Assembly: GCF_016026235.1 (NCBI RefSeq)
Contig: NZ_CP065613.1
DNA from: Escherichia coli
Lineage (GTDB): Bacteria > Pseudomonadota > Gammaproteobacteria > Enterobacterales > Enterobacteriaceae
Reading direction: 5' to 3' (one strand)
Length of the DNA: 64,000 bases
The position numbers and the translations under genes are program-made. A model generated the notes under the pieces. That model did not search any database and was not told where the DNA came from. It saw only the letters and a list, made by a program, of their open reading frames with translations. Shown in pieces: positions 51,635 to 53,350 of this stretch. The first letter of the stretch is position 1. Each line of letters starts with the position of its first letter.

Positions 51635-51751
51635 CGTGCAGCAGTCTTATCCGGCAGTTTAAAGGGGAGGACGGAGACCAATGAGGCACTGGAGCAGATT
51701 CAGTGCAGAGGTGACCTGCTTTATCAAACTTAATTGTGACAAAATGGGTAA

Positions 51752-53269
51752 GGCAGTATGACTTTCCGTGAGACAGATGCTGGCCAACGTGGGATATTTA
51801 ACGCGGGTTAACATCGTTGTCAGAGCCGCATGGGTGAGCTGTTGCTACACCCCGGTATTTCCACCACGGAGGCCAGCATGAACAACAATAACACATTGTA
51901 CGTCGGGTTAGATGTTCACAAAGAATCGATTACTGTCGCTTATGCTATCAATTCAGAACCTGTTGAACTGATGGGTAAAATTGGCACATCACCTACTGAT
52001 ATTCAGAATCTTTGTAAACGTCTCAGGTCAAAGTCATCGCAGGTCAGTATCGTTTATGAAGCGGGGCCCTGTGGTTATGGACTTTATCGTCGGCTGGTGA
52101 AATCCGGTTTTGACTGCATGGTCTGCGCCCCTCACTTATCCCGAAAAAACCGGGGGAGCGGGTTAAAACCGATCGCCGTGATGCCATCAGACTTGTGCGT
52201 TCACTGCGTGCAGGAGATCTTTCTGCTGTCTACGTACCCGGCATTGAAGATGAGGCATTCCGGGATTTGGCCCGGGCATGGGCATCTGCCCGCGATGATT
52301 TACGGCATGCAAGGCAACGTCTGAAATCGTTTCTTCTGGTTCATGGGGTCCATTATGTCGGGCGAGCAGATTGGGGCCCTGCACACCGACGCTGGCTCAG
52401 CAAATACTCATTCGAAAGTCCCTGGCGACAATTAGCTTTTGACGAACACCGTCGTACAATAGAAGACCGGCAGGCACAATGTGAACGGCTGGAATCCGCC
52501 CTGAAGGAGGCCGTTACCGAATGGAGGCTGTATCCGGTAGTAGAGGCGCTGCAAGCCATGCGAGGGATTCAGTTTATTACTGCGGTTGGATTAATTTCTG
52601 AACTGGGTGATCTGACCCGTTTTGAACATCCACGACAACTGATGTCATGGTTTGGTATCACGCCATCAGAATATTCATCGGGTGGAAGCAGACATCAGGG
52701 CAGCATTACCAAAGCCGGAAACAGCTATGCCAGAAAGCTATTGGTCGAGGCAGCGTGGAGTTACCGTCATCCGGCACGCATCAGTCCGGCAATACAAAAA
52801 GGCAGGAAAATTTACCCCGCCCCGTCATTGACAGAGCATGGGATGCTCAACTCAGGCTTTGTAAGAGGTATCGAAAACTTCAGGCCAAAGGAAAGAATGT
52901 CAATATTACAATTGTTGCTGTTGCACGTGAGCTGGCGGGTTTTATCTGGGATATGGGCCGAATAGCAATGTCTGTCGCACAACAACCACAATGTCACAAA
53001 TAAAAAATGAGAATAACCAGTTCCCTGAAGGCGACGTAGCCCGGTACAAGAGTAACCCACGTTAGCGCTTGGCGACGGCGGAACAAAGCTGATTCGCGAC
53101 GTAAGAAAGTGGCAGGCTCATATGACGGACCTCTGTAATGCGGTATCCAACCCGCGAATATCAGCGTGATTCACCGTCGGATTTACTGCTACGTCGCCCT
53201 CAGGGAATTAAACCTAAAAAGAAAATCGTCAAAATTAGAGATTCCGGTTTGACACGGAAAGTCATATCA
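51752..53269 (+). mobile_element. IS110-family insertion sequence, copy 2 (1518 bp), transposase inactivated by two 1-bp deletions
   Basis: Near-identical to 30150-32237 minus the tandem duplication; C5 to C4 at about 52128 and A6 to A5 at about 52797 split the transposase into ORFs 51830-52324 and 52195-52965. Confidence 0.8.
51830..52965 (+). pseudogene. IS110-family transposase, frameshifted
   Basis: Comparison with the intact copy at 30228-31403. Confidence 0.8.
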
Positions 53270-53350
53270 GCGTAAACTGACCGCCGTATGTAGCCATCAG
53301 ACGAAAATTGGTAACTTAGACGCCCATCTGATATAGACGGACATCTAAGT

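What the first reader, a model, noticed from the sequence alone, without database searches (positions are those of the whole stretch)
51741..53280. Same IS110-family element inserted at an identical TAA^GCG core in two unrelated loci
Copy 1 sits in speC (flanks ...cgaatataa | gcgctatgcg...) and copy 2 in the left terminal repeat of an IS66 element (flanks ...aaaatgggtaa | gcgtaaactgacc...). Both are in the same orientation, without target-site duplication, and precise removal restores an intact SpeC frame and a GTAAGCG IS66 terminus. This is the sequence-specific targeting expected for IS110-family recombinases, which are reported to use an element-encoded guide (bridge/seek) RNA.
Basis: partly seen in the sequence, partly recalled or inferred. 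Interest (0 to 1): 0.6.

Follow-up and report, generated by a model that had tools for sequence, protein, structure and literature searches.

The report
ISSso6: RNA-guided IS hitting IS66 ends
Two copies of a catalogued insertion sequence (ISSso6) sit at the same short DNA motif, most likely because the element encodes a guide RNA that reads that motif, which is normally the tip of another mobile element (IS66).

Summary
The window holds two copies of one 1.52-kb element in the same orientation. One is in speC (30150-32237) and one is in the left inverted repeat of an IS66-family element (51752-53269). Removing either copy exactly restores a sequence found uninterrupted in E. coli genomes.

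The element is ISSso6, an IS110-family member of the IS1111 group that Durrant et al. 2024 already list with a bridge RNA predicted in its right end. Across 27 distinct left and about 15 distinct right junctions the target is GTA-AG-CG(C/T)TAAC. At least nine of those right flanks are IS66-family terminal repeats or their remnants.

The 3' non-coding region folds into a conserved two-arm RNA. One loop strand is the reverse complement of AAGCGCTAAC and the opposite strand reads GUAAG. In Burkholderiales relatives the scaffold is conserved while these two strands change with each element's own flanks (0 of 20000 permutations).

Four corrections apply. AG is shared by both junctions, so the crossover point is ambiguous within TA[AG]CG. 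Copy 1 carries a 568-bp tandem duplication of its 3' part. Copy 2's transposase gene has two frameshifts. speC matches the guide well and is not a random site.

Verdict: already known, modest interest.

The parts
51752..53269 (+). ISSso6 copy 2 (the finding), 1518 bp, inserted in the left terminal repeat of an IS66-family element. AG at 51751-51752 and at 53269-53270 is the shared core, so each boundary is ambiguous by up to 2 nt.
51757..51770 (+). Left subterminal inverted repeat TATGACTTTCCGTG, preceded by the terminal extension GGCAG.
   Evidence: The repeat covaries with the right one in relatives.
51878..53003 (+). Transposase gene of copy 2, a pseudogene as assembled. One base is missing in the C run at 52128-52131 and one in the A run at 52796-52800, relative to copy 1.
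53019..53206 (+). Predicted bridge/seek RNA core, 188 nt: a long closing stem and two arms, each with an internal loop.
   Evidence: 42 pairs, 98.5% paired across 32 relatives, 8 pairs with compensatory changes.
53061..53070 (+). Target loop, 5' strand (right target guide): GTTAGCGCTT, the reverse complement of AAGCGCTAAC (target position -1, core AG, +1 to +7).
53100..53105 (+). Target loop, 3' strand (left target guide): CGTAAG, the same sense as the target's left side GTA plus core AG.
53157..53165 (+). Donor loop, 3' strand (left donor guide): AATATCAG, matching the right end CATATC plus core AG. The next base, C, equals target position +1.
53249..53266 (+). TTGACA (53249-53254), which overlaps the right subterminal inverted repeat CACGGAAAGTCATA (53253-53266). 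In a circle junction TTGACA would lie 17 bp upstream of CAGTAT in the left end.
   Evidence: TTGACA conserved in all relatives. The promoter function is an inference.
30150..31669 (+). ISSso6 copy 1, the complete 1520-bp unit inserted in speC, with an intact 375-aa transposase gene at 30276-31403 and its RNA core at 31419-31606.
31670..32237 (+). 568-bp tandem repeat of 31102-31669: the 3' third of the transposase gene plus a second full copy of the RNA region (31987-32174) and a second right end. The junction joins ..GTCATATC-AG to cattacc.
29891..34174 (-). speC (ornithine decarboxylase) split by copy 1. The uninterrupted target reads cgcgaatATAAGCGCTAtgcg.
51748..55797 (+). IS66-family element that hosts copy 2. 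Its left repeat is GTAA|GCGTAAACTGACC... It carries tnpA (53351-53776), tnpB (53773-54123) and tnpC (54154-55767). Its right repeat ends at 55797 and is unoccupied. The 8-bp target duplication CAAAATGG lies on both sides.

Best explanation
The two repeats are copies of ISSso6, an IS1111-group member of the IS110 family.

**Proposed mechanism.** Its DEDD recombinase is guided by an RNA of about 190 nt transcribed from the 266-bp non-coding region downstream of the transposase gene.
- One internal loop of that RNA reads the target. Its 5' strand GUUAGCGCUU pairs with the top strand AAGCGCTAAC, which spans position -1, the core AG and +1 to +7. [quoted passage not shown]
- A second loop carries AAUAUCAG, which matches the element's right end plus the core.
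- An excised circle, joined as ..CATATC-AG-GCAGTATG.., recombines with the target at the shared AG. This produces an oriented insertion with no duplication.

**What this explains.** The motif GTAAGCG(T/C)... is the conserved tip of IS66-family inverted repeats, so ISSso6 mostly lands there. speC carries ATAAGCGCTA, eight consecutive matches to the guide, and was hit as well.

**Shown here.**
- Identity of the two copies and exact restoration of both empty sites.
- The target consensus.
- A conserved RNA fold with compensatory changes.
- Guide-to-flank complementarity, and its covariation in relatives.

**Inferred by analogy with ISEc11 and IS621.** That the RNA is made and binds the protein, that a circle forms, and the order of strand exchange.
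For: **Identity.**
- Copies 100% identical to copy 1 are annotated in RefSeq as 'IS110-like element ISSso6 family transposase'.
- The part of the ISSso6 protein quoted from Siddiquee's supplementary FASTA, about 100 residues, is identical to the window protein.
- Durrant's supplementary table lists ISSso6 as IS1111 group with its bridge RNA in the right end.

**Family.** Pfam PF01548 and PF02371. NCBIfam NF033542 at 273.7 bits. The C-terminal domain aligns to IS621 (8wt6) and keeps the G-x-x-P-x-x-x-x-S-G motif.

**Target.**
- 27 distinct left junctions all read TAAG, and 26 read GTAAG.
- Right flanks read CG(T/C).
- Four non-IS66 sites read GTAAGCGCT or, for speC, ATAAGCGCT. One of them is a perfect GTAAGCGCTAAC.
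- IS66 TnpA or TnpC genes lie 29-96 bp beyond six of the distinct right-flank types. Three more types carry the same or a closely similar repeat sequence without an intact gene.

**RNA.**
- Single-sequence fold: z = -4.6.
- Consensus structure: 42 pairs, 98.5% paired in 32 relatives, 8 pairs with changes on both sides. No shuffle of 500 reached this. With one strand slid out of register only 33-48% pair.

**Covariation.**
- 29 distinct right-guide strands: 4.0 of 6 matches to their own flank against 1.85 +/- 0.22 when flanks are permuted (0 of 20000).
- 15 distinct left-guide strands: 3.4 of 6 against 1.82 +/- 0.27 (0 of 20000).
- L052 and L064 differ by one guide base, ACA[C]AG versus ACA[G]AG. 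Their targets differ at the paired base, CT[G]TG versus CT[C]TG.

**Architecture.** The guide complementary to the top strand lies 5' of the bottom-strand match, as described for IS1111-type seekRNAs.
Against: - Nothing here shows that the RNA exists or binds the protein. Rfam 15 has no family that matches it.
- The guide for the left end (right donor guide) could not be identified. The variation GGCAG / GACAG / GTCAG at the left end shows no clear partner in the RNA.
- The left target guide covers only about 5 nt.
- IS66 sites need a G:T wobble at +3 and often a mismatch at +4.
- 29 TAAGCG sites exist in the window and only two are occupied. The empty ones include the IS66 right repeat, at 11 of 12 matches counting one G:T wobble.
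- A few relatives (L051, L072, L079, L101) fit the fixed register poorly.
- The permutation tests do not correct for shared ancestry.
Confidence: 0.88

Rival explanations
1. The recombinase protein alone recognises GTAAGCG, as a classical site-specific recombinase would. On this reading the conserved 3' region is only a protein-binding site or a transcription signal, not a guide.
For: No RNA was observed here. The left-side match is only 5 nt. The subterminal repeats and much of the 3' region are highly conserved, as protein-binding sites would be.
Against: Relatives whose proteins are 71-81% identical use quite different targets. The only hypervariable stretches in an otherwise conserved scaffold are the two loop strands, and these match each element's own flanks in a fixed register. 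Compensatory changes keep RNA helices intact. Dependence on the RNA has been shown experimentally for other IS1111-type elements (PMC11187229).
Confidence: 0.06
2. The shared flank is chance, or the two copies arose by duplication or recombination of a larger segment rather than by two targeted insertions.
For: ISSso6 copies do recombine. L047 joins the speC left junction to an IS66 right flank, and partial duplications occur.
Against: The flanks of the two copies diverge immediately outside TAAG..CG. Both empty sites exist intact elsewhere. Every one of the 27 distinct left junctions collected from unrelated contigs ends in TAAG.
Confidence: 0.02
3. Targeting depends on a DNA structure or on IS66-bound proteins at the IS66 end, for example a transpososome or a hairpin, rather than on base pairing with a guide.
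For: At least nine of about 15 distinct right flanks are IS66-family terminal repeats or their remnants, always entered so that the ISSso6 right end faces the IS66 interior.
Against: Four sites lie in unrelated DNA: speC, a primase gene, a SopA gene and the nhaA-mokC spacer. Each carries AAGCGCT and matches the guide better than the IS66 repeats do. The orientation rule follows from the asymmetric motif itself.
Confidence: 0.04

Closest known systems
ISSso6 (ISfinder entry; Shigella sonnei; IS110 family, IS1111 group)
   Same: It is the same element. Copies 100% identical to copy 1 are annotated with this name. The quoted part of the published protein sequence, about 100 residues, is identical. 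Durrant et al. 2024 list it as IS1111 group with the RNA in the right end.
   Different: Nothing essential differs. The window's copies are one with a 568-bp 3' tandem duplication and one with a frameshifted transposase gene. I found no searchable paper that states its target or its preference for IS66 ends.
ISEc11, ISKpn4, ISPa11 and ISPst6 (IS1111-type elements with an experimentally shown seekRNA; Siddiquee et al. 2024, PMC11187229)
   Same: Subterminal inverted repeats with short asymmetric extensions. A long non-coding region downstream of the transposase gene. No target duplication and a single orientation. The RNA segment complementary to the target top strand lies 5' of the segment matching the bottom strand, and the two overlap at the insertion point.
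   Different: The ISSso6 protein is 375 aa, against the 330-350 aa given as typical for IS1111 transposases. Identity to the ISfinder proteins compared in their matrix row is only about 17-25%. The targets differ. The ISSso6 RNA has not been tested experimentally.
IS621 bridge RNA system (Durrant et al. 2024, PMC11208160; Hiraizumi et al. 2024, PMC11208158)
   Same: A DEDD plus Ser recombinase. A two-loop RNA with left and right guides that overlap a core dinucleotide shared by target and donor. The left guides pair with the bottom strand and the right guides with the top strand. The C-terminal domain aligns at E = 2e-5.
   Different: In IS621 the RNA is in the left end, the guide order within the loop is reversed and the core is CT, not AG. 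ISSso6 has long subterminal repeats. The ISSso6 clade also shows a donor-loop base that tracks target position +1. This is a mirror image of the IS621 handshake guides, which read the target's left side.
[quoted passage not shown]
   Same: An IS1111-type element whose natural target is the conserved terminal repeat of another transposable element, entered in one orientation.
   Different: The host elements differ: IS66 family here, Tn21 family there. The target sequences are unrelated.

Membership tests
IS110 family (DEDD recombinase insertion sequences) | N-terminal RuvC-like DEDD domain (Pfam PF01548) | tested here: met
   PF01548 at E = 7e-11, residues 25-169. LDVHK, YEAGP and KTDRRDA motifs are present. 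KTDrrDA aligns to IS621 KTDtvDA.
IS110 family (DEDD recombinase insertion sequences) | C-terminal Transposase_20 domain (PF02371) with the conserved G-x-x-P-x-x-x-x-S-G motif that carries the catalytic Ser | tested here: met
   PF02371 at E = 1.7e-23. GITPSEYSSG aligns to IS621 GLTPRRYESG.
IS110 family (DEDD recombinase insertion sequences) | Curated whole-protein model NF033542 'IS110 family RNA-guided transposase' scored above its cutoff | tested here: met
   273.7 bits against a cutoff of 140.
IS1111 group | Subterminal inverted repeats of about 11-13 bp, with asymmetric terminal extensions (7 or 6 bp on the left, 3 bp on the right) | tested here: met
   a 13-14 bp perfect repeat, (T)ATGACTTTCCGTG. 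If the shared AG is assigned to the left end and the repeat is counted as 13 bp, the extensions are AGGCAGT (7) and ATC (3). The repeats covary in relatives.
IS1111 group | The longer non-coding region lies downstream of the transposase gene and holds the RNA | tested here: met
   266 bp downstream against about 126 bp upstream. The structured RNA lies at 53019-53206. Durrant's table gives 'RE, IS1111' for ISSso6.
IS1111 group | Transposase length of 330-350 aa (Siddiquee et al. 2024) | tested here: not met
   375 aa from MNNNN, or 391 aa from the first ATG. The element therefore belongs to a longer-protein sublineage. This does not change the group assignment made by Durrant et al.
Bridge / seek RNA-guided recombination | Specific target, single orientation, no target-site duplication, and a core shared by the target and the element's joined ends | tested here: met
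   AG is present at both junctions.
Bridge / seek RNA-guided recombination | Loop strands complementary to both strands of the target that covary with the target across relatives | tested here: met
   own-versus-permuted scores of 4.0 vs 1.85 and 3.4 vs 1.82, with 0 of 20000 permutations reaching each.
Bridge / seek RNA-guided recombination | Donor loop with guides for both element ends | tested here: inconclusive
   The guide for the right end, AAUAUCAG, is clear. No convincing guide for the left end was found, and the ends are too constant for a covariation test.
Bridge / seek RNA-guided recombination | The RNA is expressed, binds the recombinase and is required for transposition, and a circular intermediate with a junction promoter forms | not testable with these tools
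   The sequence is only consistent with this. TTGACA in the right end would lie 17 bp from CAGTAT of the left end in a circle.

The most novel reading that the evidence does not exclude
The ISSso6 clade may have three features I did not find reported.

1. It may be a dedicated hunter of IS66-family ends. It splits GTAA from the rest of the repeat and probably disables the host element.
2. A donor-loop nucleotide immediately after the right-end guide tracks target position +1. This would be a bottom-strand counterpart of the IS621 handshake guides.
3. Recombination of the exact right end with internal AG sites recurs and produces tandem duplicates of the RNA gene.

The recombination mechanism itself stays the known one.
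Probability: 0.35. Interest if true: 0.4.

Novelty: already known. Interest (0 to 1): 0.25.

Why it matters
**For annotation.**
- The two repeats should be labelled ISSso6 (IS110 family, IS1111 group), each with a bridge/seek RNA gene.
- speC is a pseudogene created by a guided insertion.
- The IS66 copy at 51748-55797 has a split left end.

**For biology.**
- The case adds a clean natural example of guide-target matching. The guide predicts the site out to +7, and the non-IS66 sites fit it best.
- It suggests that one insertion sequence lives mainly on the ends of another family, as IS4321 and IS5075 do on Tn21.
- The clade of 29 distinct natural guide variants in Burkholderiales could serve as a ready-made set of reprogrammed guides on one conserved scaffold.

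None of this changes the current understanding of the mechanism.

Tried and rejected
- **Species-representative genomes.** An exact scan with the subterminal-repeat pattern found nothing. ISSso6 proper is absent from GTDB representatives. The protein-based scan worked instead.
- **Rfam.** Neither the gathering nor the permissive threshold gave a family for the RNA.
- **Guide for the left end.**
  - The 5' strand of the donor loop, ACCUCUGUAA, offers only CCU against AGG.
  - UACUGC, 3' of arm 2, is complementary to GCAGTA of the left end. It is invariant while left-end position +1 varies, and RNAalifold puts part of it in the closing stem.
  - Neither could be supported.
- **Handshake on the target loop.** I tested whether the base after the left target guide tracks left-end position +1. 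No consistent pattern appeared by inspection.
- **CCGCGAATAT.** This string occurs both in the speC left flank and in the donor-loop DNA. It does not recur at other sites, so I treat it as coincidence on top of the ATAT..AGCG similarity.
- **Source genome.** No complete E. coli genome has the speC junction. The window is probably from Shigella, but I could not confirm that.
- **Literature.** Searches for a reported ISSso6 target, or for IS1111-type elements in IS66 ends, found nothing relevant.
- **speC in Shigella.** Searches gave only background on polyamines.
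Full report
**1. The observation**

The window contains two copies of one element on the + strand. Copy 2, the finding, runs from 51752 to 53269. Its flanks read ..caaaatgggtaa|ggcagtatgac...gtcatatca|gcgtaaactgacc... Copy 1 begins at 30150 after ..cgcgaatataa and ends at 32237 before gcgctatgcg. A pairwise alignment shows the 1520-bp units are identical except for two single-base deletions in copy 2. Similarity stops at TAAG on the left and at CAGCG on the right.

Joining the speC flanks gives one contiguous 240-bp match annotated speC in 5420 of 5426 complete E. 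coli genomes, at 95-100% identity and 100% in the best hits. Joining the IS66 flanks gives one contiguous 100% match of 320 bp, in O104:H4 for example. Both insertions are therefore simple, with no duplication and no loss of target bases.

The IS66 host element is bounded by its own 8-bp duplication CAAAATGG, at 51740-51747 and 55798-55805. Its left repeat therefore starts GTAAGCG at 51748, and ISSso6 sits after the fourth base.

- AG is present at both junctions (TA-AG-GCAG.. and ..ATC-AG-CG), so the exchange point is ambiguous within TA[AG]CG.
- Copy 1 is 2088 bp, because 31670-32237 is a tandem repeat of 31102-31669.
- Copy 2's transposase frame is broken twice in homopolymer runs.
- The stated coordinates include 11 bp of flank on each side.

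**2. What the element is**

The 375-aa protein matches Pfam DEDD_Tnp_IS110 and Transposase_20. It scores 273.7 bits on NCBIfam NF033542, 'IS110 family RNA-guided transposase', against a cutoff of 140. Its C-terminal domain aligns to the solved IS621 and ISCro4 recombinases and keeps the SG motif.

In RefSeq, copies 100% identical to copy 1 are named 'IS110-like element ISSso6 family transposase'. The element occurs in 125 of 5426 E. coli genomes, with up to 16 places per genome. The near-identical copies listed are mostly in human stool isolates, several of which carry a plasmid labelled pINV. The part of the ISSso6 protein quoted from the Siddiquee et al. supplement, about 100 residues, is identical to the window protein. 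Durrant et al. list ISSso6 as IS1111 group with a bridge RNA in the right end.

The anatomy fits that group:
- a perfect 13-14 bp subterminal inverted repeat, (T)ATGACTTTCCGTG;
- short asymmetric extensions beyond the repeats;
- a 266-bp non-coding region downstream of the gene.

The one feature that does not fit is protein length. It is 375 aa, against the 330-350 aa given as typical.

**3. Where it inserts**

I collected other copies from three sources:
- one pattern that matches both ends, run against metagenome contigs (20 loci) and viral contigs (15 loci);
- 14 annotated E. coli regions.

This gave 27 distinct left junctions and 18 distinct right junctions. Every left flank ends TAAG, and 26 of 27 end GTAAG. 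speC, with ATAAG, is the exception. Position -4 is unconstrained.

Right flanks begin CG(T/C). For ISSso6 proper the consensus out to +7 is CG[T/C]TAAC.

For six of the roughly 15 usable right-flank types, an IS66-family tnpA or tnpC lies 29-96 bp beyond the junction. The gene is always oriented so that the ISSso6 right end faces the IS66 interior. At least three further types carry the same or a closely similar repeat sequence without an intact gene.

Four sites lie in unrelated DNA and all carry AAGCGCT after the first base:
- speC (ATAAGCGCTATG);
- a primase gene (GTAAGCGCTGAG);
- a SopA gene (GTAAGCGCTGGG);
- the nhaA-mokC spacer (GTAAGCGCTAAC).

The window holds 29 TAAGCG sites and only two are occupied. 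The host IS66 element's own right repeat, GTAAGCGTCAACGGAG, is the commonest occupied site elsewhere but is empty here. Insertion is therefore specific but infrequent.

**4. The RNA and how it reads the target**

The 188 nt at 53019-53206 fold much better than shuffled sequence (z = -4.6). A consensus fold of 32 distinct relatives gives a long closing stem and two arms, each with an internal loop. On that structure 98.5% of cells pair and 8 pairs show changes on both sides. No shuffle of 500 reached this. With one strand slid out of register only 33-48% pair.

In arm 1 the 5' loop strand is GUUAGCGCUU, the reverse complement of AAGCGCTAAC. The 3' loop strand contains (C)GUAAG, which has the same sense as GTA plus AG. 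By the published definitions, a right target guide pairs with the top strand, a left target guide pairs with the bottom strand, and both cover the core. The order found here, top-strand complement first, is the one described for IS1111-type seekRNAs.

The guide explains the site data:
- the nhaA-mokC site is a perfect 10-nt match;
- speC matches eight consecutive bases;
- IS66 repeats match with a G:T wobble at +3 and usually one mismatch at +4.

In arm 2 the 3' loop strand is AAUAUCAG, the right end CATATC plus AG. I could not identify a guide for the left end.

**5. Covariation in relatives**

A protein-based scan of species-representative genomes returned 77 loci. Nearly all were in Paraburkholderia, Caballeronia, Cupriavidus and Variovorax, at 71-81% amino-acid identity for the full-length matches. 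They have the same end architecture..AG|NCAGTATGAC... and ...GTCATATC-AG|.., but different flanks.

Their non-coding regions align well with that of ISSso6 everywhere except at the two arm-1 loop strands, which are hypervariable. I read both strands in one fixed register.
- **Right guides.** 29 distinct strands match their own right flank at 4.0 of 6 positions, against 1.85 +/- 0.22 when flanks are permuted.
- **Left guides.** 15 distinct strands match their own left flank at 3.4 of 6, against 1.82 +/- 0.27.
- No permutation of 20000 reached either observed value.

Single-base examples are clear. L052 and L064 differ as ACA[C]AGCUAC versus ACA[G]AGCUAC, and their targets differ as CT[G]TG versus CT[C]TG. 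Closer relatives found in metagenomes (77-85% nucleotide identity) still target IS66-type repeats. Their guides read UACGCUU or GACGCUU where their own targets read AAGCGTA or AAGCGTC.

The permutation test does not correct for shared ancestry, but several independent changes are visible.

**6. Mechanism, and what remains inference**

*Shown here:*
- the identity of the element;
- exact, oriented, duplication-free insertion;
- a target motif of about 12 bp;
- a conserved structured RNA region;
- guide-target complementarity, and its covariation.

*Inferred from work on ISEc11, IS621 and related elements:*
- the RNA is transcribed and bound by the recombinase;
- the element excises as a circle joined ..CATATC-AG-GCAGTATG..;
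- strand exchange occurs at the shared AG.

The right end carries TTGACA, conserved in all relatives. In a circle it would lie 17 bp upstream of CAGTAT in the left end, which would make a junction promoter. That too is inference. Copy 2 has an intact RNA region and intact ends but a broken gene, so it could move only with transposase from another copy such as copy 1.

**7. Rivals**

- **Protein-only recognition.** It does not explain why only the two loop strands vary, or why they match each element's own flanks.
- **Chance or segmental duplication.** It is excluded by the intact empty sites and the 27 concordant junctions.
- **Attraction to IS66 structure or IS66-bound proteins.** It is contradicted by the four non-IS66 sites, which fit the guide best.

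**8. Comparison with what is known, and novelty**

The element is ISSso6 itself, and the mechanism is the published bridge/seek RNA mechanism. Its closest functional parallels are ISEc11-type seekRNA elements and, for choice of target, IS4321 and IS5075 in Tn21 repeats. I rate the finding as already known.

I did not find three details in the searchable literature:
- the preference for IS66-family ends;
- a donor-loop base immediately after AAUAUCAG that equals target position +1 in 93% of 30 distinct RNAs, against 49% permuted (0 of 20000). This resembles a mirror image of the IS621 handshake guides;
- three independent tandem duplications that join the exact right end to an internal AG site: 568 bp in the window, 340 bp in VL40 pINV and 112 bp in FDAARGOS_943.

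These are small extensions, not a new kind of system.

Noticed in passing
window 31670-32237; also L126 3020-3359 and L021 21515-21626: Three independent partial tandem duplications of the ISSso6 3' part: 568, 340 and 112 bp. Each joins the exact right end ..GTCATATC-AG to an internal site containing AG (cagggcAGcattacc, cacgtgAGctggcgg, gaatatcAGcgtgatt). Two of them duplicate the whole RNA gene. The internal sites match the target guide only weakly, so the route is unclear. It could be nested insertion followed by deletion, or sister-strand exchange.
   Followed up: partly
L047 1-4438 (IMG/VR UViG 2526164619_000004): This locus has the same speC|left-end junction as the window. On the right, however, the element abuts an IS66-like right repeat instead of the rest of speC. 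This indicates recombination between two ISSso6 copies in another genome that shares the speC insertion.
   Followed up: partly
window 53165, and the equivalent base in L049-L125: The base right after the right-end guide AAUAUCAG in the donor loop equals target position +1 in 28 of 30 distinct RNAs (permuted expectation 49%). This links the donor loop to the target.
   Followed up: yes
L054, L057, L061, L065, L069, L070, L076 (Burkholderiales relatives): The right junction reads ATC-AA-.., the right guide reads UU at the core, and the left guide and left junction read AG. Target and donor cores apparently differ (AA versus AG), and each junction keeps a different one.
   Followed up: partly
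L049-L125: The nearest relatives of this Shigella / E. coli element are numerous in soil Burkholderiales (77 loci, 71-81% aa for full-length matches). Only a fragment was found in another enterobacterial representative (Acerihabitans, L122). This suggests horizontal arrival in the Escherichia lineage.
   Followed up: no
window 55791-55797 (- strand) and 34113-34124: Good unoccupied targets remain in the window. One is the host IS66 right repeat GTAAGCGTCAAC, at 11 of 12 matches counting one G:T wobble. The other is ATAAGCGCAAAC, at 10 of 12.
   Followed up: yes
window 52128-52131 and 52796-52800: Both differences between the two copies are one-base losses in homopolymer runs. They could be real decay or consensus errors from long-read assembly.
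   Followed up: no
window 35325-35397, 60411-60484, 21335-21405: A tRNA gene lies about 1.1 kb past the speC start and is followed by an island rich in IS66-family elements. There is an Esr41 sRNA match (108.6 bits) and an naRNA4 match (60.9 bits).
   Followed up: no
window 43012-43388 and 55203-55579: A 377-bp inverted repeat, 93% complementary. It consists of parts of two IS66-family tnpC genes in opposite orientation, so the island holds several diverged IS66 copies.
   Followed up: no
L002, L003, L017: ISSso6 remnants that keep only positions 900-1238 and 1435-1520 of the unit. The internal deletion removes the target loop. They still sit in an IS66 left repeat (GTAAG|CGTAAAGCC, with tnpA 96 bp downstream).
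   Followed up: no
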